This document shows, one piece after another, positions 5,738 to 60,300 of a stretch of DNA of 64,000 bases. Numbering within the stretch: the first letter of the stretch is position 1; each line of letters starts with the position of its first letter. The notes beneath the pieces are model-generated. The model saw nothing but the letters and a program-made list of their open reading frames with translations, made no database searches and was not told the DNA's origin. Both the position numbers and the translations under genes were made by a program. This stretch comes from Actinomycetota bacterium (GTDB lineage: Bacteria > Actinomycetota > Coriobacteriia > Anaerosomatales > UBA912): assembly GCA_023488435.1 (NCBI GenBank), contig JAMDCK010000059.1:9910-73909 (forward strand), written 5' to 3'.

Positions 5738-5849
5738 CGCCTGCAAGGGAGTAGGCTATATCCGGTCATCAGCAGATACCGGACGCCGAAAACCTTCGGC
5801 AACCAAGCCGTGATTTTGCATCTGTCACTAGGTGAAGGAGTGTAGCTCG

Positions 5850-8203: not shown

Positions 8204-8213
8204 TTGGAGAATC

Positions 8214-13562: not shown

Positions 13563-15039
13563 TGTCATCCAGTCCCAATTGCCGGCCATCACCATAGCGG
13601 TATTGCTGTTCGCCGCCTCTGGAGCGTTCTTGGTTCGATTCGAAAGTGCAAGAGCGATAGCTCTGGTAGCCGCTATCTTGCAGCTCCTAATGGTTTCATG
13701 GATGACATGGATCGTTGTCGGTCAAGAGGCTGTATGGGTGTACACCGTCGGGGGATGGGGGGCACCGCTGGGAATCGACCTCACCATCGACGGCACGTCA
13801 GCGGTGATGATGCTTCTGACTGCCGTTGTGGGATGCGTGGTGACCATCTATTCGGCGGGCTACTTTCCGCCCAAAGATAGCTACCGACTTTTTTGGTCCC
13901 TGTGGTTGTTCTTGTGGGCCGCTATGTTCGCGCTTTTCGCATCCAATGATCTATTCAACTTGTATGTTTGCCTGGAGCTGCTGACGATTTCGGCAGTGGG
14001 ACTCGTAGCGATATCGGGTGAGAGGGCGGCTTTGTTCGCCGGCATGCGCTACATTCTTTCCGCACTGGCCGGATCTCTTATCTATCTGTTTGGTGTGGCC
14101 CTGGTGTATGCATCCACTGGCGTCCTTGATTTCGATCTTCTTGCCGCACAGGTCAGCGTCGATCCGACAACGCAGGCGGGTCTAGCTCTAATGGTCATAG
14201 GGCTCCTCCTGAAGACAGCTCTCTTCCCGATGCACTTTTGGCTCCCCCCCGCACATGCGAATGCGGTCGCGCCTGTTAGCGCGGTACTCTCAGCACTCGT
14301 TGTCAAAGGCTCCTTCTACATCATATTCAAGATCATGCACGTTTTTGTAGGACATGAAATGATTCCTGGCCTTGCCGAGGTTTTGGGAATTCTCGGAGTC
14401 TGCGCAATCATCTGGGGATCCGCGATGGCCCTGATGCAGAAGCGCTTGAAGATGTTGGTCGCCTATTCGACGGTTGCTCAGATCGGATACCTCTTTCTAT
14501 TGTTTCCGCTGGTGGCCGCTGCCGATGACGTTCAAACCGCTGTTCTTGCGGCCAGCGCAGGACTGTTTCACGCTGTGGCTCACGGACTGGCGAAAGGGGC
14601 TATGTTCCTGACGGCCGGGACCATAGTCAAAACATTGGGAAGTGATCACCTAGAGGATATGGCCGGACTTTCACGGTTCGCTCCGATACCGGCCTTCACT
14701 TTCGCCATTGCTGGAGTGTCGATGGTGGGACTTCCGCCATCCGGCGGTTTTGCGTCCAAGTGGTTGTATGTGACTTCGGCAATCGAAACCGGTGCATGGT
14801 GGTGGGCCGCCGCTGTGGTCGTGGGCGGACTATTGGCTGCTCTATACATATTCAAGGTCATCGCCTTGTTCATGGGGTCTGGCCAGCCGCCCGCCCAAGT
14901 CACTGTCTCCAACAGGACGATCACGGTTGCGCCCTTGGTTCTGGCCTTGATGTCGTTGGTGATTGGCGTTTTCGGTCAACCGATTCTGGATCTCCTGTAT
15001 CCGGCGGTTGAGTCTTTGGCTTCGGGGATGATGAGATGA
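13549..15039 (+). CDS. mnhD: Mrp/Mnh antiporter subunit D (NuoM/N-like antiporter module)
   Basis: Proton-antiporter core (LFPMHFWLPPAHANAVAPVSAVLSALVVKG; KMLVAYSTVAQIGYLF). The start is ATG 13549 or 13555 and overlaps the mnhC stop. Confidence 0.85.
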   Translation: MTMFDVIQSQLPAITIAVLLFAASGAFLVRFESARAIALVAAILQLLMVSWMTWIVVGQEAVWVYTVGGWGAPLGIDLTIDGTSAVMMLLTAVVGCVVTIYSAGYFPPKDSYRLFWSLWLFLWAAMFALFASNDLFNLYVCLELLTISAVGLVAISGERAALFAGMRYILSALAGSLIYLFGVALVYASTGVLDFDLLAAQVSVDPTTQAGLALMVIGLLLKTALFPMHFWLPPAHANAVAPVSAVLSALVVKGSFYIIFKIMHVFVGHEMIPGLAEVLGILGVCAIIWGSAMALMQKRLKMLVAYSTVAQIGYLFLLFPLVAAADDVQTAVLAASAGLFHAVAHGLAKGAMFLTAGTIVKTLGSDHLEDMAGLSRFAPIPAFTFAIAGVSMVGLPPSGGFASKWLYVTSAIETGAWWWAAAVVVGGLLAALYIFKVIALFMGSGQPPAQVTVSNRTITVAPLVLALMSLVIGVFGQPILDLLYPAVESLASGMMR

Positions 15040-18000
15040 GTCTTGTCCAAATCGCCTTACTGACAGCCGTTTTGGCTCCGTGGTTTTCTGCGGTCGTCAT
15101 CTTCTTGCTTGGTGAGAAGCGGCATCAAGCTCGCTTCGCCGTGGGCATCATAGGATCTGCTGTCACAACCGGGGCAGCCGGCTTTCTGGGAGTGCATCTT
15201 GCCCAAGGCGGTGCTGCCGCCACTCTTGGGGTCCCCCTTTTAGGGCTCACATTTGGATTGACCGTTGATCGACTTGGTGTCACATTCGCACTTCTAGCAG
15301 CCACCTTGTGGTTCGTAACGACTTTCTTTGCAACGGGCTACATGGCGCACCTGAAAGACAAGGCGCGATTCTTCGGATTCTTTGCGATATGCGTCGGCTC
15401 CGCGGTCGGCATCGCTTTTTCGTCGAACTTGTTGAGCCTCTTCATCTTCTATGAGGCGCTCACTCTGGCCACGTACCCGCTGGTTGCTCACAAGGGGTCG
15501 CAAGCGGCGATCAAGGGAGGCCGAACTTACCTAACGTACGCACTTACAGGCGGAGCAGTGCTTCTTGTAGGGGTTGTATGGCTTCATGCACTCGGCGGTG
15601 GAGCCTTCGTTTCCTCGGGCTCTATTCCCGAAGGGCTCTTAGGTACTCACTCGGTGCAGCTGACCGTGATCTTTGCGATGCTCATCGCCGGCTTCGGCGT
15701 CAAAGCTGCGTTGTTCCCAGCGCACGGGTGGCTCCCTGCCGCGATGGTGGCACCTGCTCCTGTCAGTGCTCTGTTGCATGCGGTTGCGGTGGTCAAGGCG
15801 GGCGTCTTCGGAATCGCCCGCGTGATCCTCGATGTCTTTGGAATCGAGGCAGCCTCGCTCCTCGGGGTGCTCGACCCACTGGCCTTGCTGGCAGGATTCA
15901 CCATCATCTACGCCTCGGTCAAGGCTCTCAAGCAGGACGACATCAAGAAGCGCCTCGCATATTCGACGATAGGACAACTCTCCTACATGGTGCTGGGGCT
16001 TGCCATAGGGACTCCGATTGCAATTGCGGCCGCACTTGCCCATCTCGTGCATCATGCGTTCCTCAAGATCACGATGTTCTTCACCGCTGGCGTACTGGCT
16101 GAGGAGGTCAAGATCACTCGAGTCAGCGAGATGGATGGAGTAGGCCGAAGGATGCCGTTGACCATGCTGGCGTTTTCACTTGCAGCATTGGGGATCATCG
16201 GAATTCCGCCCATCGCCGGCTTCGTCTCCAAGTGGGGACTGGGGCTCGGTGCGCTCGAAGACGGCCTTGTCTGGCCGCTGGCCGTGCTCGGCGTAAGTAG
16301 CGTGCTCAATGCCATATATCTGCTCCCAATGATCGGCCGCGCTTGGTTTGGTGCCCCCAAGCCTGAGTGGATGAACCTAGCCAAGCAAGGCTACAAGCGA
16401 TTTGAAGGGGAGCGGCTTCTCGTGTTGCCACTGCTCGTCACAGCTTGCCTTGGTGCCCTTATGGGCCCACTTGCTTTCCTGGAGCTCTCGCCGACTCGAT
16501 GGGCCTCCATGGTTTCAGACGCATCGAGCGTGATGTCTGTTCCGTGGCGAGCGGAGCCATTCCATCTGGACTTCACGGGGACCCTGTTCCTGGTCTTGGC
16601 TGGGGTAGTTTGGCTGGTGTCAGCGTTGTCCGCGTGGCGCGCCGAAGGTCACCACAAGTGGCGATTCCGAATATTTCTACTCATGGCAGCCAGCGGTTCG
16701 ATAGGCGTAGCCTTCGCTCATGATCCGGCCATGTTCTACACGTTCTATGCGATGATGGCGTTGTCGGCATATGGCTTGATCACACACTCGAACAGGGCCC
16801 AAAACCGCCGCGCAGGCCGAATTTACATGAGCTACACGGTATTCGGTGAGGCGCTTTTGCTTGCGGCGTTGATGATAGGGTCTTTCGGCACCGATACCTT
16901 CACAGCTGTACTAATCGATTCACTCTGGCGCGACATAGGCATTGGACTGCTGCTTGTAGCCTTCGGCATCAAGATAGGCGCAATCGGCGTTCATGCCTGG
17001 ATGCCGTCTGCTTACGATTCCGCCGCACCCGGAGTGGGTGCAGCGCTTGCGGGAGTGGCATCTTCGGCGGGGATCATTGGATTGGTCAGGTTCCTTCCGG
17101 GAGGCGTCATCGATCTTCCTGGTTGGGGTTCGGTGGCCATAGTCGCAGGTCTCATCGTTGCTATGTTTGCCGCCCTAGTGGGTTGCACACAGGTCAGACC
17201 CCGACGCGTCCTGGCCTATTCGAGCATGAGCCAGTTCGGCATCATGGCCGTCGGCATAGGGGCTGGCCTGGCTAGCTCTGAGGTTTGGCCTATCGCTGTC
17301 ACCGCGGTTGCGATCTATGTGGTTCATCATGGATTTGCGAAAGCCGCTCTTTTCGCTAGCGACGAGAGCGTAGCTCATGCAGCTACCAAGCGCTGGGCAC
17401 TGCCGATCATCGCATTTGCCGGACTGACTCTGGCGGGCATGCCGTTTACTAGCGGGGCCATTGCCAAATTGGCACTCAAGGACACTCTAGTGGCCCTTCC
17501 CGGTCAATGGGAGACATTCTTGGGTGTGATGCTCTCAGTGAGCGCAGTCGGCACAACCTTGTTGATGGCTAGATTCCTGCATCTTTCGTGGAAGGGGAGT
17601 TCAGACCAGGCAATTCGCTCAGACACACCTTCAGGGCTGGGCATCATCTCGATGGCGGTACTCGCGCTCTTCACGGGCATGTTCTTATGGATAATGCCTG
17701 ACCAAGTTATACAAGCTGCAGCCGAGAAAGCTCTCGGATTCTACGGAGCGGCAGACCTAGCGCTTCCGATCCTGATTGGCGTTGTAGCTTTCGCACTGGT
17801 TATGGCGTACTCCGTACGACGGACGGATATCCGATCGTTGGTACGCTTTCCGATTGTCGACCCTTGGGTAAGGTTGACAGAAATTGTCGATTCCTTCCTG
17901 CTGATCCGTAAACCCGAGGTCGCTGAAGCAAGGGCAGAGCCGGTAGACGACGGACCAATGACAGCGTTACACCGTGCAACTCTTGCAGAATCTTATCTTC

Positions 18001-18071
18001 TGAGTTGGCCCGTAGCTTCGATTCTAGTCGTCGGGCTACTGTTGCTGGCGTTGGTGCTCGCGCTTCTGTAA
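15036..18071 (+). CDS. Fused double antiporter-like subunit (two tandem MrpD/NuoL-M-N-type modules in one 1011-aa protein)
   Basis: The N-terminal half has a complete core (LFPAHGWLPAAMVAPAPVSALLHAVAVVKAG; KRLAYSTIGQLSYM). The C-terminal half (about aa 520 onward) has a second, more divergent core (GVHAWMPSAYDSAAPGVGAALAGV; RRVLAYSSMSQFG; VHHGFAKAALF). ATGA overlap with mnhD. Confidence 0.75.
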   Translation: MSLVQIALLTAVLAPWFSAVVIFLLGEKRHQARFAVGIIGSAVTTGAAGFLGVHLAQGGAAATLGVPLLGLTFGLTVDRLGVTFALLAATLWFVTTFFATGYMAHLKDKARFFGFFAICVGSAVGIAFSSNLLSLFIFYEALTLATYPLVAHKGSQAAIKGGRTYLTYALTGGAVLLVGVVWLHALGGGAFVSSGSIPEGLLGTHSVQLTVIFAMLIAGFGVKAALFPAHGWLPAAMVAPAPVSALLHAVAVVKAGVFGIARVILDVFGIEAASLLGVLDPLALLAGFTIIYASVKALKQDDIKKRLAYSTIGQLSYMVLGLAIGTPIAIAAALAHLVHHAFLKITMFFTAGVLAEEVKITRVSEMDGVGRRMPLTMLAFSLAALGIIGIPPIAGFVSKWGLGLGALEDGLVWPLAVLGVSSVLNAIYLLPMIGRAWFGAPKPEWMNLAKQGYKRFEGERLLVLPLLVTACLGALMGPLAFLELSPTRWASMVSDASSVMSVPWRAEPFHLDFTGTLFLVLAGVVWLVSALSAWRAEGHHKWRFRIFLLMAASGSIGVAFAHDPAMFYTFYAMMALSAYGLITHSNRAQNRRAGRIYMSYTVFGEALLLAALMIGSFGTDTFTAVLIDSLWRDIGIGLLLVAFGIKIGAIGVHAWMPSAYDSAAPGVGAALAGVASSAGIIGLVRFLPGGVIDLPGWGSVAIVAGLIVAMFAALVGCTQVRPRRVLAYSSMSQFGIMAVGIGAGLASSEVWPIAVTAVAIYVVHHGFAKAALFASDESVAHAATKRWALPIIAFAGLTLAGMPFTSGAIAKLALKDTLVALPGQWETFLGVMLSVSAVGTTLLMARFLHLSWKGSSDQAIRSDTPSGLGIISMAVLALFTGMFLWIMPDQVIQAAAEKALGFYGAADLALPILIGVVAFALVMAYSVRRTDIRSLVRFPIVDPWVRLTEIVDSFLLIRKPEVAEARAEPVDDGPMTALHRATLAESYLLSWPVASILVVGLLLLALVLALL

Positions 18072-28966: not shown

Positions 28967-30043
28967 ATGCCCTACAACGACTTGTTCTTGCGCGCAGCCA
29001 GACTACAGCCTACCGAGCGAACCCCCGTTTGGATGATGAGACAGGCTGGGCGTTATATGCCCGAATATCGCGCTATCAGAGAAAAGCATGGCTTCTTGGA
29101 CATGTGTCGCAATCCCGAGCTGGCGGTAGAAATAACCCTTCAGCCGGTCGATCTTATCGGCGTGGACGCCGCTATATTGTTCTCAGACATTCTGGTTTCC
29201 TTCACTGGAATGGGGCTCGATCTTGAGTTCGCCAAAGGCGAGGGTCCGGTAATCCACAATCCAGTGCGGTCTTCGGCCGATGTCGATAAACTGATAGTCG
29301 CCGATCCGTATGAGGCCACTGGCTACGTGATGGAAGCCATCAAGATACTTAGGCATGAACTAGCCAACAAGGTGCCGCTTATTGGATTTGCGGGCGCGCC
29401 GTTCACATTGGCGAGCTATGCCATCGAGGGTCATGGCACCCGTGACTATGAATACACTAAGGCTCTCATGTGGGGGGATACCCCGGCATGGGATCGCCTG
29501 CTGACCAAGTTCGCTGATACCACAATTGCTTATCTCAACGCCCAGATAGACGCCGGCGCCCAGGTAGTCCAGCTCTTTGACAGCTGGGTCGGATACATCG
29601 CTCCGAGGGACTACCAGAGATACATCCTTCCATACACCACCCGTGTCATCAGTGAGGTGAAAGCCCACGGCGATGCCACCGTTGAGGGTGGGGTCCCGTT
29701 GATCCACTTCCCAAATGGTGCCACCTCCATGTTGGACCTCGCCATGCAGGCGGGTGGCGACGTCATCGGTATCGACTGGAGGCTCGACATGCGCACCGCA
29801 GTCAAGATGATCGATGCTCGCTTTGGGATTCAAGGCAACATCGACCCAGTCGCACTGTTCGCCCCCGAGGACATCCTCGAGTCCATGGTCGTTGAGATTC
29901 TGGAGGCTGTTGGAACTAGGCCGGGCCACATCTTCAACCTCGGACACGGTATCCACAAGACGAGCGATCCAGAGAAGGCGAAGGCTATGATCCAGATGGT
30001 TCACCATCATTCTGATCGCATACGGTCTCGATCGGCCGAGTAG
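28967..30043 (+). CDS. hemE: Uroporphyrinogen decarboxylase
   Basis: The N-terminus PVWMMRQAGRYMPEYR is the HemE signature. 358 aa. The stop overlaps the hemH start. Confidence 0.9.
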   Translation: MPYNDLFLRAARLQPTERTPVWMMRQAGRYMPEYRAIREKHGFLDMCRNPELAVEITLQPVDLIGVDAAILFSDILVSFTGMGLDLEFAKGEGPVIHNPVRSSADVDKLIVADPYEATGYVMEAIKILRHELANKVPLIGFAGAPFTLASYAIEGHGTRDYEYTKALMWGDTPAWDRLLTKFADTTIAYLNAQIDAGAQVVQLFDSWVGYIAPRDYQRYILPYTTRVISEVKAHGDATVEGGVPLIHFPNGATSMLDLAMQAGGDVIGIDWRLDMRTAVKMIDARFGIQGNIDPVALFAPEDILESMVVEILEAVGTRPGHIFNLGHGIHKTSDPEKAKAMIQMVHHHSDRIRSRSAE

Positions 30044-31041
30044 TGTCGACTGCCCAGACTTCCGAAGTCGGCGTGCTGCTCGTTGGATACGGGGGCCCGC
30101 GAAACTTGGACGCTGTAGAGGGATTCCTCGCAGCTGTCATGGCCCGGCCCCCTTCTGAGGAGCTAGTACATAGCGTCCGCAACAGGTATCTTGCTCTCGG
30201 AGGATCGTCCCCTCTGCTTCCTCTAGCCGAGGAGCTCGCTCATGCCCTGTCGGCAACCCTGGGCGATAAAGGATGGGATGTTCCTGTTCGAATCGGGTAC
30301 AGCTATTCTGATCCGTCTGTGGCGAACTCGATTCGAGAACTCTATGCTTCCGGTGTTCGAAGGTTGATTACGGTTCCTCTTTCGCCTTTTGAAGCTGAAA
30401 TCACCACAGTGACCTACAGAAAGATGGTCACTTCCGCAGTCAGTGGACTTCTCGACATGTCTGTCCTGGAAATTCCGTTGTTGGGCGGCCTGGAAGGCTT
30501 TCTTGATGCCCATGCAGCTCGACTCTCTTTAGTTCTTGAAGAGGTCGAAGGTGGGAGAGATGGAAGGACGCTGATTTTGTTCAGCGCACATAGCCTTCCA
30601 ATGGGCGAAGTGGCTGACTCAACCAGCATCGGCTATTTGGACGGGCTCAAGCTTGCCTGTGACGGAGTGGCAAGCCGCATATCGCTGCCTATTGGTGGCT
30701 CTGTAAACTTTGCTGGTCACCACTCCCATGGGTCAACCGAGGGCACCTATCCGTGGATGTTGGCATTTCAGTCGAAGGGACAGCGTCCAGGTCAATGGTT
30801 GGGACCCTCCGCTGAGGAGATCTCAAATGCTGCCCTTACGGATGACTACGACACAATCGTCGTGTGTCCGGTAGGCTTTGCGTTGGACAACATGGAGACT
30901 TTGTACGATCTGGATGTTGAACTTGCGGACCTCGTAATCAGTCGGAACGGGGAATTTGCTCGCTCTCCCGCACCGAACAGCGATCCGCTGCTGGTGTACG
31001 ACGTCGTCGATTGCATTATCGAGACCGTCGGTTCCTACTGA
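30043..31041 (+). CDS. hemH: Ferrochelatase (proto- or coproporphyrin ferrochelatase)
   Basis: 332 aa. It has VGVLLVGYGGP at the N-terminus and FSAHSLP, with a ferrochelatase-like layout. GTG start at 30043. Confidence 0.8.
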   Translation: MSTAQTSEVGVLLVGYGGPRNLDAVEGFLAAVMARPPSEELVHSVRNRYLALGGSSPLLPLAEELAHALSATLGDKGWDVPVRIGYSYSDPSVANSIRELYASGVRRLITVPLSPFEAEITTVTYRKMVTSAVSGLLDMSVLEIPLLGGLEGFLDAHAARLSLVLEEVEGGRDGRTLILFSAHSLPMGEVADSTSIGYLDGLKLACDGVASRISLPIGGSVNFAGHHSHGSTEGTYPWMLAFQSKGQRPGQWLGPSAEEISNAALTDDYDTIVVCPVGFALDNMETLYDLDVELADLVISRNGEFARSPAPNSDPLLVYDVVDCIIETVGSY

Positions 31042-32387
31042 CAAGCCTCGTGGCTGAGTCTCTGGCTCGAGCCGACTGCGTCGTCGACGAGGACTCTCTC
31101 TGTCGAAGAATCGGTCAGTAACATCTTGTCCTCCGGAGGGAGCCCCGCACGTGCTTTGTCACGTGCGTCATTGCTTGACGCAAGGGTTTCTCGCATCATC
31201 ACCATGAGCAGGTACCGCCCGGTTTCAGTCAGTGTGATCTCTTCGTCATCGTGTTTTGCGATGCCACCGGATACATGCATGAATGCTAGCTCCGGAGCTA
31301 GGCCTCGCTCAACCGGGATGCCAAAGTCCGCAAGAAAACGTTTCTTGTCCAGCCTCAGGCCGAACAGATCGGTCACAAAGCGATATCTCATGAGAGCTTT
31401 AGTGCCGTAGGGCCTTCCACGCTTGGCGACGGACATCCTGCCTGAGCGAATTGCCCGTGAGTATTCGGTTAATGAGAATGTATTGCTGTATATCGTCCCG
31501 CCAAGAAAGGAAAGGGCTCCAGATCCAATCCCAACATATTCCTCGTAGTCAACAATGTACTCGTCGATCATCGAGTTCGTGTCTTTCGAGTATGTCCATG
31601 CCGAAGTGGGAATGTACTGGTCCGATAGCTTGTCAGCAATAACTCGATAGTAATGAGCTTCTCTTTTGTAATCGATCCGACCCACGGCGCGGGCGAGCTC
31701 AAGGCGATTGAGTGGGGATGCCATGAGCGGGTAGAAGGTAGTCTGATTGGCACCGGTGGCCTTCAGTAGCTCGATGTCCTTGCTAAGGATTTCTTCAGTC
31801 TGGCTAGGAAAGTTGAACATCATGTCCACATTGAGCGAATTAAACTTGCCCGACACACCCGAGACCCTTTCCAGCAGAGTGTGTCCGTCTCCGTACTTCT
31901 CGAATCTGTCCATCTGCCTAAGTAGCTTCTCATCGAAACTCTGCACTCCAACGGAAAGGCGGTGGACTCGGCCGGCGAGTTCATCAACAAGCCTTTCATC
32001 TAGGTGATTTGGAGATGTCTCACAAGAAACCTCTTTGATGTCGAAAAGTGACCTGGCTAAATCGATGGTCTTCGTCAACTCATCAAGCATTACAGTCGGC
32101 GTTCCACCTCCGATATAGAGGGAGGGAAAGGAGTAGCCGAGTCCCGCTAGCATCCGCATCTCTTCACGAAGGTCCTTGAAGTATTCGCGACAACGTCGAT
32201 CGTCGAAGATAAAGCGGTTGAATGAACAGTAAAGGCAGAGTCTTTCGCAGAATGGAACGTGCAAGTAGAGAACATAACCCCTGTCTAGACCAGGTGGGGG
32301 GAGCAAGAGATCGTCAGAGGAGTCCTGGGATAGGTAACTACGGTTCAGTATTCGAAGTGCGGCGGTAACTAAACGCTCTGACAGCAT
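31035..32387 (-). CDS. HemN/HemZ-family radical SAM enzyme (oxygen-independent coproporphyrinogen oxidase-like)
   Basis: It has the radical SAM motif YLHVPFCERLCLYCSF (CxxxCxxC), GGGTP, and a HemN_C-like tail. 450 aa. It is convergent with hemH, overlapping by 7 nt. Confidence 0.7.
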   Translation of the reverse strand: MLSERLVTAALRILNRSYLSQDSSDDLLLPPPGLDRGYVLYLHVPFCERLCLYCSFNRFIFDDRRCREYFKDLREEMRMLAGLGYSFPSLYIGGGTPTVMLDELTKTIDLARSLFDIKEVSCETSPNHLDERLVDELAGRVHRLSVGVQSFDEKLLRQMDRFEKYGDGHTLLERVSGVSGKFNSLNVDMMFNFPSQTEEILSKDIELLKATGANQTTFYPLMASPLNRLELARAVGRIDYKREAHYYRVIADKLSDQYIPTSAWTYSKDTNSMIDEYIVDYEEYVGIGSGALSFLGGTIYSNTFSLTEYSRAIRSGRMSVAKRGRPYGTKALMRYRFVTDLFGLRLDKKRFLADFGIPVERGLAPELAFMHVSGGIAKHDDEEITLTETGRYLLMVMMRETLASSNDARDKARAGLPPEDKMLLTDSSTERVLVDDAVGSSQRLSHEACQ

Positions 32388-32495: not shown

Positions 32496-33185
32496 CTAGT
32501 GGCTGTGGCCGCCGCCAATCACCTTTCCTGTCTCGGGGTCACACTGAAGACCGTCGCATTCCTTCCATGCAAAGATCAGCTTGGAGGGAGCGAACCCAGC
32601 GACGTTGGCAAGGTAGATATGGATAGCTGTGAAGATGATGAACACCCACATCATGAAGTAGTGGATGATCCGCATATTCATCGCGCCATTCACCAAGTTC
32701 AGGCCTGCTTCAAAGATGGCCCAATCCATGACCGGGGCGTAGATTGCAAAACCCGTGTAGGCCATGAGGTAGGTCAGGGGCACAGTCGCCAAGTAGGCGA
32801 TCTTCTGAAGGACGCCGTACTTGGCACCAATCGGCTTCTCCTTCTTCAGGAACAGGTAGTACTTCAACCACGGCAGCAACTGATGCCGATTCGCCTTCTG
32901 GGGTAGCCAGTTCTTGATGTCGGTGTCCTGGGTACGGGTACCGAGGGCACAAGAAGTCTTGACGAAGAACGCCGCTATGATCCTGAAGGTCAGGTTGATG
33001 ATCAGCACATACATGAAGAAGAAGTGAATGCCTCTAGCGAGACCCATCGCACCTGGCGCAGCGAACAGCGGATAGTGGATATAGAACCCCGACAGAGCGA
33101 GGAGGACCATAGCCACTGCATTGATCCAGTGTGTAACTACGAAGACCAGTGGATGTGCCTCACGATAGTGGGCGAGGTGCGCCAT
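32496..33185 (-). CDS. Ni/Fe-hydrogenase b-type cytochrome subunit
   Basis: 229 aa with 4 TM. The motif FVVTHWINAVAMVLLALSGFYIHYP and conserved His positions are typical of the HyaC/Ni_hydr_CYTB family. The start lies 1 nt after the readthrough stop of the large subunit. Confidence 0.8.
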   Translation of the reverse strand: MAHLAHYREAHPLVFVVTHWINAVAMVLLALSGFYIHYPLFAAPGAMGLARGIHFFFMYVLIINLTFRIIAAFFVKTSCALGTRTQDTDIKNWLPQKANRHQLLPWLKYYLFLKKEKPIGAKYGVLQKIAYLATVPLTYLMAYTGFAIYAPVMDWAIFEAGLNLVNGAMNMRIIHYFMMWVFIIFTAIHIYLANVAGFAPSKLIFAWKECDGLQCDPETGKVIGGGHSH

Positions 33186-33186
33186 C

Positions 33187-34830
33187 TTACTTCACCCCCA
33201 TCGGCTTGGTGTGGACTACTGCCTTCTTGCCAGTTTTTGGTTCAATCACGTGAACCGCACAACCCACTCAAGGGTCGAAGCTTCTGGCTACACGGACAAC
33301 ATTGAGGGGCCTTTCGATGTCAGCAACGGGAGTGCCGATCAAAGCTTCCTCCATAGGGCCACGTCGGCCAGCAGCATCGCGAGGAGCGCATGTCCATGTG
33401 GAGGGCGTGACTACGTTGTAGCGATCAACCTTGCGATTCTTCACAGTCATGTAGTGGGCAAGAGCACCCCGTGGTGCTTCCCACATTCCATAACCTTCAC
33501 CGTCAGTGATGTCATGAGGGGTGAACAGTTCCAGAGGACCCGCTTTGACCGCCGCAATGAGATCGTTTAAGAATTGCTCGGTGAGAGTTGCTGTGTGGGC
33601 TGTCTCGAGGTTACGAGCAGCCACTCGGCCCAGCAGAGAGACCAGAACCTCAGGCTTACCGGCGGCACCTAGCTTGGCAAGAGTGCTATCGATCAGATCC
33701 TGGACCGCCTCGTCGCCCTTTACGTAAGCAACGACCATTCTAGCTAGGGGACCGACCTCGGCAGGCAAGTCTTTGTACCGAACTGCCTTGCCCCAAGAGT
33801 ACTTGTCGTCGGTGTTGTACTCGGTGAACGCAGGGACGGTTTCTCCGACCTTCGGGTTAAGTCCAGAAGGGGAGGAGTACCATGCGTGCTCCGTGTACTC
33901 CTTGACGTTGTCGATATCCACTGTATCCAGGCCCAACGAGGCACCCTCGGAGAAGCCGGGTGGCATATAGCGATTATCGATCTCGAACGACGGGTCATCG
34001 AAGACTCCGAAGGAGAGAAAGTTGCCGCCTCCGCCACCGAACTTCAGTGCATCGAGGTAGAAAGGCGCGATTGCCAGGGTGTCTGGAATCATGGCCTCTC
34101 TCACAAAAGCGTTAACCTTCGCTAGGCGGAACTTTACGTCATCGAGCTTTTCTTCGGTCGGGACCCAAGAAGTACCACCATTAATGGAGCTCATGAAGTG
34201 GGGGAACTTTCCACCCATGACTGCGATGATAGTAGCCGCCTCGGCCTGCATCTCCAGAGCTTCGAGATAGTGCGCGACGCCGATCAGGTGAAGCTCGGCC
34301 GGCATATCAGCTGGGTACTCAGGATGTCCGAACCAGCCATTCGCGAAGATGGAAAGCTGTCCGCGCTCAACGAACGCCGACAGCCTCTTTGCGATGGCGC
34401 CAAAGTCTGCCACCCGAGTCCCGGCAGCATGTGCGAGTGCATAGGTGTCAGCGATGTTTGCCTGAAGCGCCTTTACTGGATCGACGTAATCGAGTGCAGC
34501 CAATGTGTAGAACCACAGAATGTGGCTATGGAGGTACTGTGCACCTTCCAGTATGTTACGAACGAGTCTAGCGCCTTCGGGAATCTGGACTCCCATTGCT
34601 GCCTCGGCTGACATGCTCGATGCGTGGCCGTGGGAGACGGGACACACCCCGCAGATCCGCTGGGAGATGAAGAACGCATCCTGTGGTGCTCTGTTCTTGA
34701 TGATTGCTTCCAATCCGCGGAAGAGAGAACCAGAAATCCAAGCGTCCTTTACAACGCCGCCATCGACTTCGACTTCGACTCGCATGTGACCCTCGATACG
34801 GGTCAATGGATCAATAACCGCGCGTGCCAC
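33187..34830 (-). CDS. [NiFeSe]-hydrogenase large subunit, with in-frame TGA (33268..33270) read as selenocysteine; 547 aa
   Basis: The N-terminal Ni motif RICGVCPVSH is present. The track ORF ends ...SFDP at TGA. Continuing in frame gives U-VGCAVH plus a 20-aa tail and then TAA (33187..33189), which is DP[U]xxCxxH plus a protease-cleaved extension. GTG start at 34830, overlapping the small-subunit stop as TAGTG. Confidence 0.8.
33239..33256 (-). promoter_or_regulatory. Candidate SECIS-like stem-loop downstream of the UGA
   Basis: The mRNA GGUUCA-CGUGAU-UGAACC forms a 6-bp stem with a 6-nt loop containing GU, starting 11 nt after the UGA. This is hand-folded only. Confidence 0.3.
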
Positions 34831-35996
34831 TATTTACCGCCTCCCTTCTTGCGATCGCATTCCTTCATCTCTTCGTATGGAGCGCCCTCGCCATCCATTC
34901 TTCCGGCTGCCTTCATGCCGAGTCCATGGGCAACCAGGGCAGCCGCAGCTGCGGCACCAACGATAACACCGGCTGTCGATGGTTGGATCCGCATATCGCC
35001 AATCTTGAGATCACGATGGCGCTTGAGGAACGGAGCATTCACATCTACCCAGTTACCACCGGCTTTAGGGCTGGTGATGCCGCAACCGATACACGGAGCT
35101 CCCGATTCGACGCACCATGAGGCCCTTCTGTTCCACCTAACGATGGGACAGTTGGTGAAGGTCTGCGGACCCTTGCATCCTACCGGGTACAGACAGTAAC
35201 CCAGCTCCTCTTCCTTGCTTCCGAACTCGTAGACGAACTGAGCGTTCTCGAAGTGGCCCCGTCGCGGACACAGATCGTGAATCGGGTGTCCAAAGATCAA
35301 TGAGGGGCGATTGAACGAGTCCATTTCAGGGAGTCGACCAAGAATCAATACATTGATGACGGTTGCAACAATCCATTCGGGGTTCACCGGACAGGTTGGC
35401 AGGTTAATCAGAGGAGTATCTATGCCAGCTTCGTCCAAGAACTGCTTCATTCCAATAGCATCAGCTGGATTTGGCTTGGCAGCGACGAATCCGCCGTCAA
35501 CTGCACAAGATCCAACGGCGACGATCGCTTCAGCGGCTTCGGCCTTCTTCTTCAGGCGATCGATTTGAGGCTCGCCGAATTCCCTTAGGGCGTTCCCGCC
35601 CTGGCCGCGCATGATAGAACCCTCATAGATCAAAATGAAGCCGATGTCGTTCTCGGCATCCTCCAGGGTATCGGCAACGATCCTCTCTAGGTCGTCACCC
35701 GAAGCCATATTGATGGTCATGTTCTTGAGGGAAAGGATATCAAGCACGATGGTCGCTATATCAGGCGTGTCTACCTGGGCAATAGCTACGGTACAACCTG
35801 TGCAGATTCCTCCATGGAGCCAGAGTGTCGGCTTCAACCGCGCACCCTTCTCTACAGCTGCGGCAATCTGGGGGATCATAGACTCAGACATTCCAAGAAT
35901 CGCAGCTACTGAGCCACAAAACTTGAGGAAATCGCGACGGGAGACTCCGTGGAATTCCAGTTGGGATCGGAGCGCGTCGTGGTCCTCATTTGCCAT
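34830..35996 (-). CDS. [NiFe(Se)]-hydrogenase small subunit, Tat-exported, with C-terminal membrane anchor
   Basis: It has the Tat motif SRRDFLKF and Fe-S cluster cysteines, including ...SWCVESGAPCIGC. A C-terminal hydrophobic helix is present. An SD AGGAGG lies 8 nt upstream of ATG 35996; the track start at 36005 lies inside that SD. Confidence 0.88.
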   Translation of the reverse strand: MANEDHDALRSQLEFHGVSRRDFLKFCGSVAAILGMSESMIPQIAAAVEKGARLKPTLWLHGGICTGCTVAIAQVDTPDIATIVLDILSLKNMTINMASGDDLERIVADTLEDAENDIGFILIYEGSIMRGQGGNALREFGEPQIDRLKKKAEAAEAIVAVGSCAVDGGFVAAKPNPADAIGMKQFLDEAGIDTPLINLPTCPVNPEWIVATVINVLILGRLPEMDSFNRPSLIFGHPIHDLCPRRGHFENAQFVYEFGSKEEELGYCLYPVGCKGPQTFTNCPIVRWNRRASWCVESGAPCIGCGITSPKAGGNWVDVNAPFLKRHRDLKIGDMRIQPSTAGVIVGAAAAAALVAHGLGMKAAGRMDGEGAPYEEMKECDRKKGGGK

Positions 35997-36117
35997 GCTA
36001 TACACCTCCTCGAATAATGCGTGAGTAGTGCCTTCACGTTTGTAGCTTGCGTGTTAGCGGACAAACAGCATCCACGCAAACCTGCGTACGAGGTGTTCTT
36101 ATGGGCGCCCCCCTTTC

Positions 36118-52052: not shown

Positions 52053-53354
52053 ATGCGAAACAGAGGCTTCTTCGGCGGGATACACCCATCCAGTAAAAAG
52101 ACTGGGTCGCGGGAGTCGGGTATCAGGCGACCCGCTTTGCCCCCAAGACTCCACGTGCCCCTAAGTCAGCACGTTGGTGCCCAGGCGATCCCAGTGGTTT
52201 CCTCGGGAGATACCGTCCTACGCGGGCAGGTCATCGGCGAAGCCCAGGGTTCGATCTCTGCACCTGTGCACTCGCCTGTGGACGGCGAGGTCACAGGTGT
52301 GTATGACATGCGTCTGGTGTCAGGTGCACGAGGGGCGGTATGTGAGATCGCCCCACGTGCTGAGCAGGACTGGACATCCTTCGTCAGGATCGACCCTTCA
52401 GACGATGTCTCGGAGACGGTTCGCATGGCAGGGATAGTCGGTATGGGTGGCGGCGCGTTTCCATCGAGCGTCAAATTGCACCGCTCACATGGAAAGCCCA
52501 TCCACACAGTCATCGTCAACGGGTGCGAGTGCGAGCCCTACCTCACTTGCGATGATCGGCTGATGCGTGAATCGCCAGCTCGCATTTTGGCGGGGGCGCG
52601 GATACTGGGCAAGGCGATGGGTGCGCAGAGGGTCGTCATCGCCTTAGAGGACGACAAGCCCGAGGCTCGTGAGGCACTAGCGCAACATAATCAGCCCGAC
52701 GTCGAGATAATTGTCTTCCCCGCGAGGTACCCTCAGGGTGCGGAGAAGCAATTGATCTACTCGATCACCCGCGAAGAGGTTCCTCATGGCAGGCTACCTG
52801 CGTCGGTGGGCGTTTTGGTCCATAACGTTGGTACAGCCGCTGCGATTGCTGATGCGGTACAACTTGGGAAACCGTTAATCGAGCGCGTTGTAACCATTTC
52901 CGGTCAAGTCGCCAACCCGTCCAACTTCCTAGCCCTCGTCGGCACCCCCATAAGCCATCTACTTTCCGAAGCGGGCGGCTTGAGCGCGGGGGTCTGCCGC
53001 ATCATCGCTGGCGGCCCTATGACTGGGACTGCGGTGGCCGACCTTGATCTTCCGGTGGTCAAAGGAACATCCGGTCTAGTCGCGCTGACGCAGGCCGATC
53101 TTCCACCCGCGATTCATTCGGATCAACCATGCATCAGGTGCTCTAGGTGTGTCGATGCTTGTCCGATGCGTCTGCAGCCCTACGCCATCGGCATCCATGC
53201 CAACCGGGCAGACTGGGACGGGATCCAACGATTCGTGCCGTTGAGCTGCATCGAGTGCGGCTGCTGCGAGACGGTTTGTCCTACTCGAAGGCCTCTGATT
53301 CAGCTGATTCGGCGAGCCAAGCAGGTCTTGCTAGCCAAGGGAGTGGAAGCATGA
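52053..53354 (+). CDS. rnfC: Rnf electron-transport complex subunit C
   Basis: 433 aa. It has an RnfC-type N-terminal barrel, an NADH/FMN-binding region (GMGGGAFPS) and two 4Fe-4S motifs (CIRCSRCVDACP, CIECGCCETVCP). Confidence 0.9.
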   Translation: MRNRGFFGGIHPSSKKTGSRESGIRRPALPPRLHVPLSQHVGAQAIPVVSSGDTVLRGQVIGEAQGSISAPVHSPVDGEVTGVYDMRLVSGARGAVCEIAPRAEQDWTSFVRIDPSDDVSETVRMAGIVGMGGGAFPSSVKLHRSHGKPIHTVIVNGCECEPYLTCDDRLMRESPARILAGARILGKAMGAQRVVIALEDDKPEAREALAQHNQPDVEIIVFPARYPQGAEKQLIYSITREEVPHGRLPASVGVLVHNVGTAAAIADAVQLGKPLIERVVTISGQVANPSNFLALVGTPISHLLSEAGGLSAGVCRIIAGGPMTGTAVADLDLPVVKGTSGLVALTQADLPPAIHSDQPCIRCSRCVDACPMRLQPYAIGIHANRADWDGIQRFVPLSCIECGCCETVCPTRRPLIQLIRRAKQVLLAKGVEA

Positions 53355-54358
53355 GTGCCGATCCAGGTATTCGGACCTGGCACGTCGCTTCGTCTCCACA
53401 TGTCGCGCAAGCGGTTTCGTGTCCTAAGATCATGTTCATAGTCATTGCAACGCTTTTGCCGGTCACCATATGGGTTGTCATGAACATGGGGATGTTGGCA
53501 GTTGGTGTACTGGTTGCGTGTATAGCCTCTTCGGTTGGCAGTGAGGCGTTATGGAACTGGATTGCCCGAAAACCGCAGACTATCACGGACGGGAGCGCCC
53601 TACTCACAGGCTTGCTTCTGGCTCTGACGATGCCCCCACGTACCCCCCTCTGGATTGCCGTCGCGGGCGGTATCGTCGCAATCTGTCTTGGAAAGATGCT
53701 GTTCGGGGGCTTGGGGTGGAATCTGTTCAATCCTGCGCTGGTGGGCAAGGCGTTCGTCGCGATATCGTGGACCGGCGTCTTGTCTGAACAGACTGTGCCC
53801 GGGGGTTGGTATAGGGGTATCGACGTCCCTGCCCCTGAAGGTCATGACGCCATCACCGGCGCGACCAGACTCGCAATTGCGGCCGCCGACAAAGCCGCAT
53901 CAGGGGCCTATGGCTTCGAATCGAGTCAACACTACGCACCGCTTCTCTTTCGCAACCTTGAGGGCTCGCTTGGGGAGATATCGGCAGCCCTATTGATTTT
54001 AGGTGGCTTTGTCCTTATTGCCATGAGGATTATCGACTGGCGCATTCCAACGGGCTACATAGGAACGGCGGCGCTCTTGTCCTGGGTGCTCGGAGTCGAT
54101 CCGATATTCCATGTGTTGGCCGGAGGACTTCTCCTTGGAGCCTTCTTTATGGCCACAGACTATGTCACATCGCCGATGACCAAACTCGGACGATTACTCT
54201 TCGGATGCGGCTGTGGCCTGATCAATATAGTAGCCCGACTCTATGGTCCCGGGCCCGAAGCGACCACATGGGCGATACTCTTCATGAACGGCTTGGTCCC
54301 ACTCATTGACAGATTGACTGCCCCGCGCGTCTTCGGATGGAGGAAAAGGAATGGGTAG
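53351..54358 (+). CDS. rnfD: Rnf complex subunit D
   Basis: The start ATG 53351 overlaps the rnfC stop as ATGA. It is a polytopic membrane protein with the FMN-attachment context ITGATRL. The track start at 53147 lies inside rnfC. Confidence 0.88.
   Translation: MSADPGIRTWHVASSPHVAQAVSCPKIMFIVIATLLPVTIWVVMNMGMLAVGVLVACIASSVGSEALWNWIARKPQTITDGSALLTGLLLALTMPPRTPLWIAVAGGIVAICLGKMLFGGLGWNLFNPALVGKAFVAISWTGVLSEQTVPGGWYRGIDVPAPEGHDAITGATRLAIAAADKAASGAYGFESSQHYAPLLFRNLEGSLGEISAALLILGGFVLIAMRIIDWRIPTGYIGTAALLSWVLGVDPIFHVLAGGLLLGAFFMATDYVTSPMTKLGRLLFGCGCGLINIVARLYGPGPEATTWAILFMNGLVPLIDRLTAPRVFGWRKRNG

Positions 54359-58658: not shown

Positions 58659-60300
<1,642 letters not shown>

What the first reader, a model, noticed from the sequence alone, without database searches (positions are those of the whole stretch)
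33187..34830. In-frame TGA in the hydrogenase large subunit is very likely selenocysteine: a [NiFeSe] hydrogenase truncated by the ORF track
The track ORF 33268..34830(-) ends ...VARSFDP at TGA (33268..33270). Reading on in the same frame gives U-VGCAVH-VIEPKTGKKAVVHTKPMGVK-TAA (stop 33187..33189). That restores the canonical C-terminal nickel-ligand motif DPCxxCxxH with its first Cys codon replaced by TGA. It also adds a 20-aa extension of the kind removed by the hydrogenase maturation endopeptidase. Without readthrough the protein would lack two of its four Ni ligands. The extended stop lies 1 nt before the cytochrome b start codon (33183..33185), so the operon packing only makes sense with readthrough. 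A small hairpin (ggttca/tgaacc, 33239..33256) begins 11 nt after the UGA, roughly where bacterial SECIS elements sit. Independently, the small subunit reads ...SWCVESGAPCIGC, where standard [NiFe] enzymes have Pro after the Trp. That predicts a [4Fe-4S] rather than [3Fe-4S] medial cluster, as in characterised [NiFeSe] enzymes. The combination with a membrane cytochrome b and a small-subunit C-terminal anchor is not the classic soluble Desulfovibrio Hys arrangement.
Basis: partly seen in the sequence, partly recalled or inferred. Interest (0 to 1): 0.8.

Follow-up and report, generated by a model that had tools for sequence, protein, structure and literature searches.

The report
Selenocysteine hydrogenase in uncultured Coriobacteriia
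The apparent stop codon inside this hydrogen-oxidising enzyme gene almost certainly encodes selenocysteine, so this is a selenium-containing [NiFeSe] hydrogenase of a membrane-bound type, from a bacterial group (Coriobacteriia) where such enzymes have not been described and are routinely annotated as truncated.

Summary

- **The codon.** The large-subunit gene (33187-34830, minus strand) has an in-frame TGA at 33268-33270. It sits where [NiFe] hydrogenases carry the first Cys of DPCxxCxxH and where Desulfovibrio [NiFeSe] carries Sec489.
- **Conservation.** 68 related Coriobacteriia loci keep TGA there, followed by xGCxV(H/Q), about 20 further codons and a real stop. Cytochrome b starts 0-5 nt after that stop.
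- **SECIS.** A hairpin 11 nt after the UGA pairs in 95% of cells, with GC/CG compensatory swaps. It is degraded in the 8 relatives that have TGC/TGT.
- **Not an error.** Seventeen contigs from several sequencing runs encode the identical truncated product, and all six whose DNA I read carry the TGA. TGA is otherwise the commonest stop in the window.
- **What it is.** It is not a HysAB-type enzyme. It groups with the Coriobacteria-type (HydDB group 1i) membrane-bound hydrogenases, with a Tat signal, a small-subunit anchor and cytochrome b.
- **Novelty.** HydDB lists [NiFeSe] variants only for groups 1a, 3a and 3c.

Two caveats apply. The small subunit's medial-cluster Cys also occurs in Cys-type relatives, so it is not independent evidence for Sec. 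No Sec machinery lies in the window, and I could not link any to this genome.

The parts
34830..36005 (-). Hydrogenase small subunit gene (391-aa ORF from GTG; gene callers start at the ATG, giving 388 aa). Its TAG stop overlaps the large-subunit GTG start by 1 nt.
   Evidence: Pfam PF01058 and PF14720. Best PDB match is 1h2a_S at 2.6e-67. Overlap shown.
35919..35942 (-). Twin-arginine (Tat) signal motif SRRDFLKF, small-subunit residues 22-29.
   Evidence: Translation; aligns to the SRRDFLKF of 1h2a_S; coordinates.
35082..35120 (-). Medial Fe-S cluster motif SWCVESGAPCIGC. Cys298 replaces the Pro of [3Fe-4S] enzymes, which predicts a 4-Cys [4Fe-4S] medial cluster.
   Evidence: Alignment to NWPVDAGHPCIGC of 1h2a_S. 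The same W-C occurs in 68 Sec-type and all 8 Cys-type loci where the motif was found.
34914..34979 (-). C-terminal hydrophobic membrane-anchor helix of the small subunit (residues 343-364).
   Evidence: Sequence. Alignment to E. coli Hyd-1 and R. eutropha MBH small subunits extends to query residue 362.
33187..34830 (-). Complete large-subunit gene: a 547-codon precursor including the Sec codon, ending at TAA.
   Evidence: Translation; PF00374 at E 1.7e-152; PDB hits align through query residue 527 or beyond.
34630..34659 (-). N-terminal Ni-Fe ligand motif RICGVCPVSH (Cys60, Cys63).
   Evidence: Translation; coordinates; aligned to RTCGVCTYTH of 1h2a_L.
33268..33270 (-). In-frame UGA = selenocysteine codon 521. 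This is the terminal Ni-ligand position, the first Cys of DPCxxCxxH, and corresponds to Sec489 of DvH HysA.
   Evidence: TGA at this codon in 68 related loci against TGC/TGT in 8. The HysA-type P0261 ends at ...AFDP, aligned to 2wpn_B residue 488. The 17 contigs carrying the identical 520-aa product imply the same stop, and TGA was read in all 6 fetched.
33239..33256 (-). SECIS-like hairpin GGUUCA-CGUGAU-UGAACC, 11 nt 3' of the UGA. It is embedded in the codons for A-V-H-V-I-E-P. A weaker lower stem extends it to about 33220-33267.
   Evidence: MFE fold. Across 66 distinct sequences, 95% of cells pair against 84% in shuffles and at most 56% in slid controls. Two pairs show GC/CG/AU compensatory changes in 39 cells. 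Synonymous third positions are nearly invariant. Only 57% of cells pair in Cys-type loci.
33250..33276 (-). C-terminal Ni-ligand motif DP-U-VG-C-AV-H (residues 519-527).
   Evidence: Translation; aligns to DPCIACGVH of 1h2a_L and 1frf_L.
33190..33249 (-). 20-codon C-terminal extension (VIEPKTGKKAVVHTKPMGVK). By analogy it is removed after His527 by a maturation endopeptidase.
   Evidence: Translation. The extension is conserved at 19-24 aa in the related loci. HycI-family protease genes lie downstream in 50 Sec-type loci but not in the window. Cleavage itself is inferred.
33187..33189 (-). True stop codon (TAA) of the large subunit, 1 nt before the cytochrome b ATG.
   Evidence: The same 0-5 nt junction occurs in every related locus where it could be measured, Sec-type and Cys-type alike.
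32496..33185 (-). Cytochrome b subunit (229 aa), the membrane and quinone-reducing partner.
   Evidence: Pfam PF01292 Ni_hydr_CYTB at 4.7e-24.
31035..32387 (-). Radical-SAM gene of the coproporphyrinogen III oxidase family (HemN/HemW-like). It is a conserved downstream neighbour and a probable operon member.
   Evidence: NCBIfam NF006385 at 2.2e-143. The same gene follows cytochrome b in about 45 Sec-type loci. Its role is inferred only.

Best explanation
The operon on the minus strand encodes a Tat-exported, membrane-anchored, cytochrome b-linked H2-uptake hydrogenase. Its order is small subunit, large subunit, cytochrome b, then probably a HemN/HemW-like radical-SAM gene. The large subunit is a selenoprotein.

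Proposed mechanism, with shown and inferred steps marked:

1. During translation, the hairpin 11 nt downstream of UGA-521 acts as a bacterial SECIS. It recruits SelB-GTP-Sec-tRNA(Sec), so Sec is inserted instead of terminating. (The hairpin and its conservation are shown. SelB recruitment and Sec insertion are inferred.)
2. The ribosome reads 26 more codons to the TAA, which abuts the cytochrome b start. (Shown.)
3. The 547-aa precursor binds Ni-Fe through Cys60, Cys63, Sec521 and Cys524. (Ligand positions are shown by alignment. Metal binding is inferred.)
4. An endopeptidase encoded elsewhere in the genome removes the 20-residue tail after His527. (Inferred.)
5. The dimer is exported via the small subunit's RR signal. 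It passes electrons from H2 through three Fe-S clusters to haem b and then menaquinone. The medial cluster is predicted to be [4Fe-4S]. (Inferred from homology.)

Phylogenetically this is a Sec-containing branch of the Coriobacteria-type (HydDB group 1i) enzymes, not a HysAB-type group 1a [NiFeSe] enzyme.
For: - **Family and position.** PF00374, PF01058/PF14720 and PF01292 match the three genes. The UGA aligns with the first Cys of DPCxxCxxH in solved [NiFe] structures and with Sec489 of 2wpn_B.
- **Conserved truncation point.** 112 of the 120 closest proteins end at FDP.
- **Conserved codon and frame.** 68 loci from species-representative Coriobacteriia genomes have TGA plus xGCxV[H/Q] plus an extension; 8 have TGC/TGT. 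The 20 downstream codons contain no stops in 66 distinct sequences, and third-position diversity exceeds first and second.
- **Operon packing.** Cytochrome b starts 0-5 nt after the extended stop everywhere it could be measured.
- **Hairpin.** 95% of cells pair. There are 39 doubly compensated cells, and no shuffle of 500 reaches the observed percentage paired or covariation score. Slid controls collapse. The synonymous positions T27, T36 and A39 are nearly fixed. In Cys-type loci only 57% of cells pair.
- **Not an artefact.** The identical product occurs on 17 contigs from different runs, with TGA read in all 6 fetched.
- **Normal genetic code.** TGA is the ordinary stop of 20 of 32 Pfam-supported genes in the window.
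- **Sec decoding in the class.** selD genes with their own in-frame UGA occur in L076 and L077, and a selD-selB cluster occurs on a Coriobacteriales contig.
- **Lineage.** The Sec clade has 99% bootstrap support and is nested with Cys-type Coriobacteriia (100% together with P0242). Cultured Anaerosomatales enzymes were classified as group 1i (PMC9686372).
- **Context.** Menaquinone and haem biosynthesis genes lie in the window.
Against: - No selA, selB, selC or selD lies in the 64-kb window. Three attempts to place Sec machinery on a contig shared with a Sec-type hydrogenase failed.
- The hairpin alone is not thermodynamically exceptional (z = -1.15). No Rfam family matches it.
- No maturation protease gene lies in the window.
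- Sec incorporation, cleavage of the tail, the cluster types and the quinone acceptor are all inferred from homology.
- The deep branch separating this lineage from HysA has only 60% NJ bootstrap support.
Confidence: 0.92

Rival explanations
1. The TGA is a genuine stop. The gene is a pseudogene, or it encodes a truncated 520-aa protein lacking two Ni ligands, and the downstream 26 codons are non-coding spacer.
For: Gene callers and NCBI annotate 505-530 aa products ending at FDP. TGA is the usual stop in this window.
Against: The spacer keeps its frame, its CxxH ligand motif and its length in 68 loci at 57-93% protein identity. It contains no stops and shows a coding-type substitution pattern. 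Cytochrome b is coupled to the extended stop, not to the TGA. A protein without two Ni ligands could not bind the cofactor (established [NiFe] biochemistry).
Confidence: 0.02
2. The TGA is a sequencing or assembly error of TGC/TGT, and the enzyme is an ordinary [NiFe] hydrogenase.
For: A single-base difference would suffice. Cys-type orthologues exist in Eggerthellaceae and in some Anaerosomatales.
Against: Seventeen contigs from several sequencing runs encode the identical 520-aa product, and TGA was read in all 6 loci fetched. The same TGA occurs in 68 other genomes. The hairpin co-occurs only with TGA.
Confidence: 0.01
3. The UGA is read through, but not as Sec. Near-cognate Trp or Cys insertion, or a suppressor tRNA, is stimulated by the hairpin, giving a Cys- or Trp-containing enzyme.
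For: Sec machinery was not found in the window and could not be linked to the genome. RNA structures 3' of stop codons can stimulate readthrough (general knowledge).
Against: - The hairpin has the spacing of bacterial SECIS elements: 11 nt from the UGA, with 17 nt between the UGA and the apical loop. Its loop also contains G/U (compared from memory with the fdhF and bSECISearch models).
- The position is exactly the one occupied by Sec in all known [NiFeSe] enzymes.
- Trp cannot ligate Ni.
- If Cys were wanted, a one-base change would give it efficiently, as in sister lineages.
- The class Coriobacteriia does decode Sec.
Confidence: 0.04
4. Split gene: the 26-residue C-terminal peptide is translated separately from the GTG that directly follows the TGA in this window, and it assembles with the 520-aa chain.
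For: In the window the codon after the TGA is GTG, a possible start codon.
Against: In most relatives the next codon is ATC, ATT, CTC, CTG or GTA rather than a usual start. No conserved ribosome-binding site was seen. No precedent is known to me.
Confidence: 0.01

Closest known systems
Periplasmic [NiFeSe] hydrogenase HysAB of Desulfovibrio vulgaris Hildenborough and Desulfomicrobium baculatum (HydDB group 1a; PDB 2wpn, 1cc1)
   Same: Sec is encoded by an in-frame UGA at the same Ni-ligand position (Sec489/Sec492). The medial cluster has four Cys ligands. The enzyme is Tat-exported and has a C-terminal extension after the His.
   Different: - It is not a close relative: 345-364 bits in two stretches, against 444 bits for a standard [NiFe] enzyme. 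The two fall in different parts of the tree.
- The large subunit has standard length (527 aa mature, against about 490).
- It has a small-subunit TM anchor and a cytochrome b subunit, rather than a soluble or lipoprotein dimer that reduces cytochrome c3.
- The host is an actinobacterium, not a sulfate reducer.
HydDB group 1i 'Coriobacteria-type' [NiFe] hydrogenases (Eggerthellaceae; Anaerosoma tenue and Parvivirga hydrogeniphila, PMC9686372)
   Same: The taxonomic class and the small-large-cytochrome b gene order match. The small subunit has the same W-C medial motif. The two lineages group in one clade with 100% support.
   Different: - The described members are treated as Cys-type [NiFe]. 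HydDB lists no [NiFeSe] variant for group 1i, and the Anaerosomatales paper does not mention Sec.
- Here the first C-terminal Cys is Sec, with a SECIS.
- A radical-SAM gene follows cytochrome b.
- The window has no protease gene in the cluster.
Standard periplasmic [NiFe] hydrogenase of D. vulgaris Miyazaki F and D. fructosovorans (PDB 1h2a, 1frf; group 1b)
   Same: These are the best-scoring solved structures for both subunits (444 and 230 bits). They align end to end, including GVHVIEP after the ligand motif in 1frf.
   Different: They have Cys rather than Sec, Pro rather than Cys at the medial cluster ([3Fe-4S]), and no cytochrome b or anchor.
E. coli Hyd-1 C576U engineered variant (Evans et al. 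2021, PMC8020662)
   Same: It is a membrane-bound, cytochrome b-linked uptake hydrogenase carrying Sec at the position used by native [NiFeSe] enzymes.
   Different: That enzyme is engineered, group 1d and O2-tolerant, with a 6-Cys proximal cluster. The enzyme here is natural, and its proximal-cluster region reads CTGC, which is the standard form.
Methanococcus Vhu and Fru [NiFeSe] hydrogenases (groups 3c and 3a)
   Same: Sec occupies the homologous Ni-ligand position. Cys-type counterparts exist in related lineages.
   Different: They are cytoplasmic and cofactor-coupled, belong to archaea with 3'-UTR SECIS elements, and are only distantly related (about 100 bits, N-terminal region only).
E. 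coli fdhF-type bacterial SECIS
   Same: The hairpin lies immediately 3' of the UGA within the coding sequence, with about 11 nt of spacing and G/U in the apical loop (my knowledge of the fdhF element; spacing measured).
   Different: The sequence differs, and no bulged U is evident in the window's copy. No Rfam model matches. SelB binding is untested.

Membership tests
[NiFeSe] hydrogenase (functional class) | In-frame UGA at the position of the first Cys of the C-terminal DPCxxCxxH Ni-ligand motif | tested here: met
   DP-TGA-VGCAVH. It aligns to DPCIACGVH of 1h2a and 1frf. HysA-type P0261 ends at FDP, which is 2wpn_B residue 488, so Sec489 follows.
[NiFeSe] hydrogenase (functional class) | Bacterial SECIS stem-loop directly downstream of the UGA | tested here: met
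   A hairpin 11 nt after the UGA pairs in 95% of cells across 66 sequences, with two pairs showing compensatory changes. It is degraded in Cys-type loci. The single-sequence fold is not significant.
[NiFeSe] hydrogenase (functional class) | Sec-decoding machinery (selA, selB, selC, selD) in the same genome | not testable with these tools
   None lies in the 64-kb window. Linking by shared contig failed. The class does possess it: selD with a UGA in L076 and L077, and a selD-selB cluster in L087.
[NiFeSe] hydrogenase (functional class) | Selenium actually present in the mature enzyme | not testable with these tools
   This needs 75Se labelling, ICP-MS or peptide mass spectrometry.
[NiFeSe] hydrogenase (functional class) | Medial cluster with four Cys ligands ([4Fe-4S] instead of [3Fe-4S]) | tested here: met
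   SWC aligns against NWP of 1h2a_S. This is not discriminating, because all 8 Cys-type relatives also have W-C.
HysAB-type periplasmic [NiFeSe] (HydDB group 1a) | Closest sequence relationship to HysA/HysB | tested here: not met
   The large subunit scores 345-364 bits to 2wpn and 5jsu against 444 bits to 1h2a. The small subunit scores 136-154 against 230 bits. The two occupy separate tree positions.
HysAB-type periplasmic [NiFeSe] (HydDB group 1a) | Two-subunit enzyme without cytochrome b or a small-subunit TM anchor | tested here: not met
   The cytochrome b gene abuts the large subunit, and the small subunit has a C-terminal hydrophobic helix.
HydDB group 1i, Coriobacteria-type | Encoded by Coriobacteriia | tested here: met
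   Named homologues and loci are Coriobacteriia, Anaerosomatales or Actinomycetota MAGs. The closest is UBA912 at 93%.
HydDB group 1i, Coriobacteria-type | Gene cluster of small subunit, large subunit and cytochrome b (plus protease) | tested here: met
   Small subunit, large subunit and cytochrome b are present. The protease is absent from the window but lies downstream in 50 Sec-type relatives and in the Cys-type Eggerthellaceae loci.
HydDB group 1i, Coriobacteria-type | Phylogenetic clustering with known Coriobacteria-type large subunits | tested here: met
   In the NJ tree, Sec-type plus Cys-type Coriobacteriia (including Gordonibacter and Berryella) plus P0242 have 100% bootstrap support.
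HydDB group 1i, Coriobacteria-type | Assignment by the HydDB classifier | not testable with these tools
   The classifier is not available here. The group 1i assignment of cultured Anaerosomatales enzymes is taken from PMC9686372.

The most novel reading that the evidence does not exclude
A large and previously unrecognised clade of natural, membrane-bound, cytochrome b-linked and presumably menaquinone-reducing [NiFeSe] hydrogenases exists in environmental Coriobacteriia (OPB41/Anaerosomatales and relatives).

- It acquired Sec independently of the Desulfovibrio and methanogen [NiFeSe] enzymes.
- It is the majority form of the group 1i enzyme outside the gut.
- It has close Cys-type orthologues at about 60% identity, which form natural Sec/Cys pairs on one scaffold.
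Probability: 0.6. Interest if true: 0.65.

Novelty: new variant of a known kind. Interest (0 to 1): 0.55.

Why it matters
**Where natural [NiFeSe] enzymes are thought to occur.** They are prized for high H2-production activity and fast recovery from O2. They are described as a small subgroup from sulfate reducers and methanogens (PMC8020662). HydDB lists them only in groups 1a, 3a and 3c.

**What this adds.** It adds a fourth lineage with a different architecture: a respiratory, membrane-anchored trimer with cytochrome b. The lineage sits in Actinomycetota and is present in about 66 species-level genomes.

**A testable question.** Cys-type orthologues exist on the same scaffold, so the lineage offers natural Sec/Cys pairs. 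The question 'what difference does selenium make?' has so far been approached by engineering Sec into E. coli Hyd-1.

**Annotation.** Most database entries for this family are truncated at the Sec codon (112 of the 120 closest). Surveys of hydrogenases and of selenoproteomes therefore both miscount them.

**Ecology.** It implies a selenium requirement for H2-driven respiration in subsurface OPB41-type bacteria.

Tried and rejected
- **Rfam.** Neither the gathering threshold on the whole window nor E-value up to 10 on 33150-33330 gave a SECIS family match. This is uninformative, because bacterial SECIS elements are gene-specific.
- **Single-sequence folding.** The fold of 33220-33270 gave z = -1.15, not significant. 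I replaced it with comparative analysis.
- **tRNA-Sec.** ARAGORN found only Cys, Gly, Val and Arg tRNAs in the window and none in L001-L060.
- **Sec genes in the window.** Pfam and NCBIfam scans of about 50 ORFs found none.
- **Other selenoprotein genes in the window.** A scan for in-frame TGAs with long flanks gave 143 candidates. All but the hydrogenase lay in spurious frames, or in the upstream extension of the OsmC gene.
- **Linking Sec machinery to a Sec-type hydrogenase genome by shared contig length.**
  - A SelD search gave no contig match.
  - A SelB search with a Coriobacteriales query from L087 gave no match.
- **Medial-cluster Cys as independent support for Sec.** Rejected, because Cys-type relatives have it too.
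- **Split-gene idea** (GTG after the TGA). Rejected, because that codon is not conserved as a start.
- **Alternative genetic code.** Rejected, because TGA ends 20 of 32 genes.
- **Literature.** Searches combining NiFeSe, selenocysteine or selenoprotein with Coriobacteri*, OPB41 or Actino* found no description of this enzyme. The library lacks most subscription journals.
Full report
**1. The observation**

On the minus strand, 34830-33271 translates to a 520-residue protein that matches Pfam PF00374, the nickel-dependent hydrogenase large subunit, at E 1.7e-152. It ends ...VARSFDP at TGA 33270-33268. Reading on in frame gives VGCAVH, then VIEPKTGKKAVVHTKPMGVK, then TAA at 33189-33187. The ATG of a PF01292 cytochrome b gene follows one base later, at 33185.

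Upstream, and overlapping the large-subunit GTG by one base, lies the small subunit (PF01058 and PF14720). It carries a twin-arginine motif SRRDFLKF, a C-terminal hydrophobic helix and the motif SWCVESGAPCIGC. The hairpin GGUUCA-CGUGAU-UGAACC sits at 33256-33239, 11 nt after the UGA.

The Ni ligands are Cys60 and Cys63 (RICGVCPVSH), codon 521 (UGA) and Cys524.

**2. Is the TGA real and conserved?**

- The identical 520-aa product is called on 17 contigs from several sequencing runs. All six loci whose DNA I read carry the TGA, and five of them match the window exactly from the last FDP codons through the TAA.
- Of the 120 closest proteins in the 5.8-billion-sequence collection, 112 end at ...FDP. 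The other 8 continue as DPCxxCxxH plus a tail.
- The species-representative genome collection gave 80 loci. Of these, 68 have TGA at this codon, followed by xGCxV(H/Q), 19-24 further codons and a real stop.
- Eight loci have TGC or TGT. They come from Eggerthellaceae MAGs, Gordonibacter sp. and Berryella wangjianweii.
- The 20 codons after the TGA contain no stop in 66 distinct sequences. Third-position diversity exceeds that of the first and second positions.
- Cytochrome b begins 0-5 nt after the extended stop in every locus where this could be measured, whether Sec-type or Cys-type.
- TGA is the ordinary stop of 20 of 32 Pfam-supported genes in the window, so the genome does not reassign UGA globally.

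A pseudogene, a sequencing error and a genuine stop are therefore excluded for practical purposes.

**3. The hairpin**

By itself the window's hairpin is unremarkable: -13.2 kcal/mol, z = -1.15. No Rfam family matches it. The comparative evidence is strong.

- In a gapless, codon-registered alignment of 66 distinct TGA-type sequences, the 7-bp stem pairs in 95% of cells. Shuffles give 84%, and controls slid by 1-3 columns give at most 56%.
- Two base pairs switch between G-C, C-G and A-U in 39 cells. No shuffle of 500 reaches the observed percentage paired or covariation score.
- Some of these swaps change the protein in a coordinated way. Ala...Pro (GCG...CCG) alternates with Gly...Arg (GGC...CGC).
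- The synonymous third positions inside the stem (T27, T36, A39) are nearly invariant, while flanking third positions vary freely.
- In the eight Cys-codon relatives only 57% of these cells pair.

A hairpin that begins 11 nt after the UGA, with a G/U-containing apical loop 17 nt downstream, is what I know of bacterial SECIS elements such as fdhF. That comparison is from memory and was not tested here.

**4. Position of the Sec**

Solved [NiFe] structures align through DPCIACGVH to the window's DP-U-VGCAVH. A HysA-type representative, P0261, scores 760 bits to D. vulgaris Hildenborough [NiFeSe] 2wpn_B. It ends at ...AFDP, aligned to residue 488. The next residue is Sec489 of that enzyme. The window's UGA is therefore at exactly the position used by characterised [NiFeSe] hydrogenases.

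**5. What kind of hydrogenase**

The best solved matches for both subunits are standard Desulfovibrio [NiFe] enzymes. 1h2a scores 444 bits for the large subunit and 230 bits for the small one. The HysAB [NiFeSe] enzymes score 334-364 and 136-154 bits.

I built a neighbour-joining tree of 89 large subunits, all trimmed at the DP motif.

- The Sec-type Coriobacteriia form one clade with 99% bootstrap support.
- That clade is nested with Cys-type Coriobacteriia and a Coriobacteriaceae representative (100%).
- Its next neighbours are a Nitrospirota Cys-type cluster and a further Sec/Cys pair (P0244 and P0286).
- 2wpn and P0261 lie elsewhere, among Cys-type representatives. The deep split between the two regions has only 60% support.

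[quoted passage not shown] It lists [NiFeSe] variants only for groups 1a, 3a and 3c (PMC5037454). The description of the first cultured OPB41/Anaerosomatales strains assigns their large-small-cytochrome b-protease cluster to group 1i and does not mention selenocysteine (PMC9686372). [quoted passage not shown] I found no paper describing this enzyme, but the library omits most subscription journals.

**6. The small-subunit argument**

The Cys after Trp does replace the Pro of [3Fe-4S] enzymes, so a four-Cys medial cluster is predicted. However, all eight Cys-type relatives have the same W-C. It is a trait of the lineage, not a correlate of Sec. The proximal-cluster region reads CTGC, the standard form rather than the O2-tolerant six-Cys form.

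**7. Mechanism**

Shown:
- the gene order;
- the recoding signal and its conservation;
- the ligand motif;
- the Tat motif, the anchor and cytochrome b;
- menaquinone-biosynthesis genes (MqnP-like, UbiD/UbiX type) and haem-biosynthesis genes (hemE, hemH) in the same window.

Inferred:
- SelB-dependent Sec insertion;
- Hyp-dependent cofactor assembly;
- removal of the 20-residue tail after His527 by a HycI/HybD-family protease;
- Tat export;
- electron transfer from H2 to menaquinone.

The protease is encoded downstream in 50 Sec-type relatives but nowhere in this window.

**8. What could not be done**

No sel gene or tRNA-Sec lies in the window. I showed that the class decodes Sec. selD genes with their own in-frame UGA (SKGG-U-AAK) lie beside the Cys-type hydrogenase operons of Gordonibacter and Berryella. 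A Coriobacteriales contig carries a selD-selB cluster. Searches with SelD, with SelB and with a SelB profile over metagenomes did not return a contig shared with a Sec-type hydrogenase.

Long-term conservation of UGA plus SECIS plus frame across about 66 species is hard to explain without functional Sec decoding. That remains an inference.

**9. Verdict**

It is a known kind of thing, a [NiFeSe] hydrogenase, in a new setting:
- a different lineage (group 1i-like);
- a different architecture (membrane-bound, cytochrome b-linked);
- a different phylum;
- widespread and systematically mis-annotated as truncated.

I rate it a new variant of a known kind, with moderate interest.

Noticed in passing
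window 31035-32387 (-); L004-L060, about 8.4-10.0 kb: A radical-SAM gene of the coproporphyrinogen III oxidase family (NF006385; HemN/HemW-like) directly follows cytochrome b in the window. The same gene does so in about 45 Sec-type loci, at 57-72% identity, usually with the maturation protease after it. It is absent from the Cys-type Eggerthellaceae loci. It may be a haem chaperone for the cytochrome b subunit; that is speculation.
   Followed up: partly
window 58659-59479 and 59480-60300: There is an exact 821-bp tandem duplication covering the end of radC and the 5' part of mreB. It produces a truncated mreB copy (58885-59601) ahead of the full gene (59706-60758). At 100% identity it is either an assembly artefact or a very recent duplication.
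   Followed up: partly
L076 10732-11805 (-); L077 12111-13190 (-): selD genes with their own in-frame TGA at the active-site position (SKGG-U-AAKWGPG) lie 3-5 kb from the Cys-type hydrogenase operons of Gordonibacter sp. and Berryella wangjianweii. These Sec-decoding organisms nevertheless use Cys in the hydrogenase.
   Followed up: partly
L028, L034, L041, L050 (codon 7 of the C-terminal motif): In four Sec-type loci the terminal His of DPUxxCxxH is replaced by Gln (U-xGCGVQ). This is the residue after which the maturation protease normally cuts. A few unrelated Cys-type representatives (P0269, P0271, P0351) also have ...CAVQ.
   Followed up: no
L028, L029, L031, L032, L034, L041, L042, L046, L048, L050, L055-L059, L061, L063: In about 20 Sec-type loci the large-subunit gene also ends with TGA. 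The same mRNA therefore uses UGA once as Sec (with the hairpin) and, 25-30 codons later, as the real stop.
   Followed up: no
P0244 (representative protein, 524 aa, JGI metagenome): A further standard-length large subunit ends at ...HTFDP, so it is presumably Sec-type. It is 44% identical to the window protein and groups with the Cys-type P0286, outside both the Coriobacteriia and HysA clades. It may be another unrecognised [NiFeSe] lineage. Its organism is unknown.
   Followed up: partly
L076 7564-7626: The TGT-type Gordonibacter locus retains 5 of the 7 stem pairs (CGGTTCACGTAAGCGAGCCA, local MFE -10.5 kcal/mol). This could be a remnant SECIS left by a Sec-to-Cys conversion.
   Followed up: no
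window 33271-34830 and database entries P0001-P0120: Public annotation, including NCBI MAG records such as MCL4553625.1, names these proteins 'nickel-dependent hydrogenase large subunit' at 505-530 aa with no Sec flag. 112 of the 120 closest entries are truncated at the Sec codon.
   Followed up: yes
window 5832-8813 (+), 28967-31041 (+), 52053-57152 (+), 11074-18071 (+): The window also encodes several respiratory functions:
- late menaquinone-biosynthesis genes (SCO4490-type decarboxylase, MqnP-like prenyltransferase, UbiX);
- the haem genes hemE and hemH;
- an Rnf complex (rnfCDGEAB-like);
- an Mrp-type antiporter.
This is consistent with an anaerobic respiratory lifestyle that uses quinone and haem b.
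   Followed up: partly
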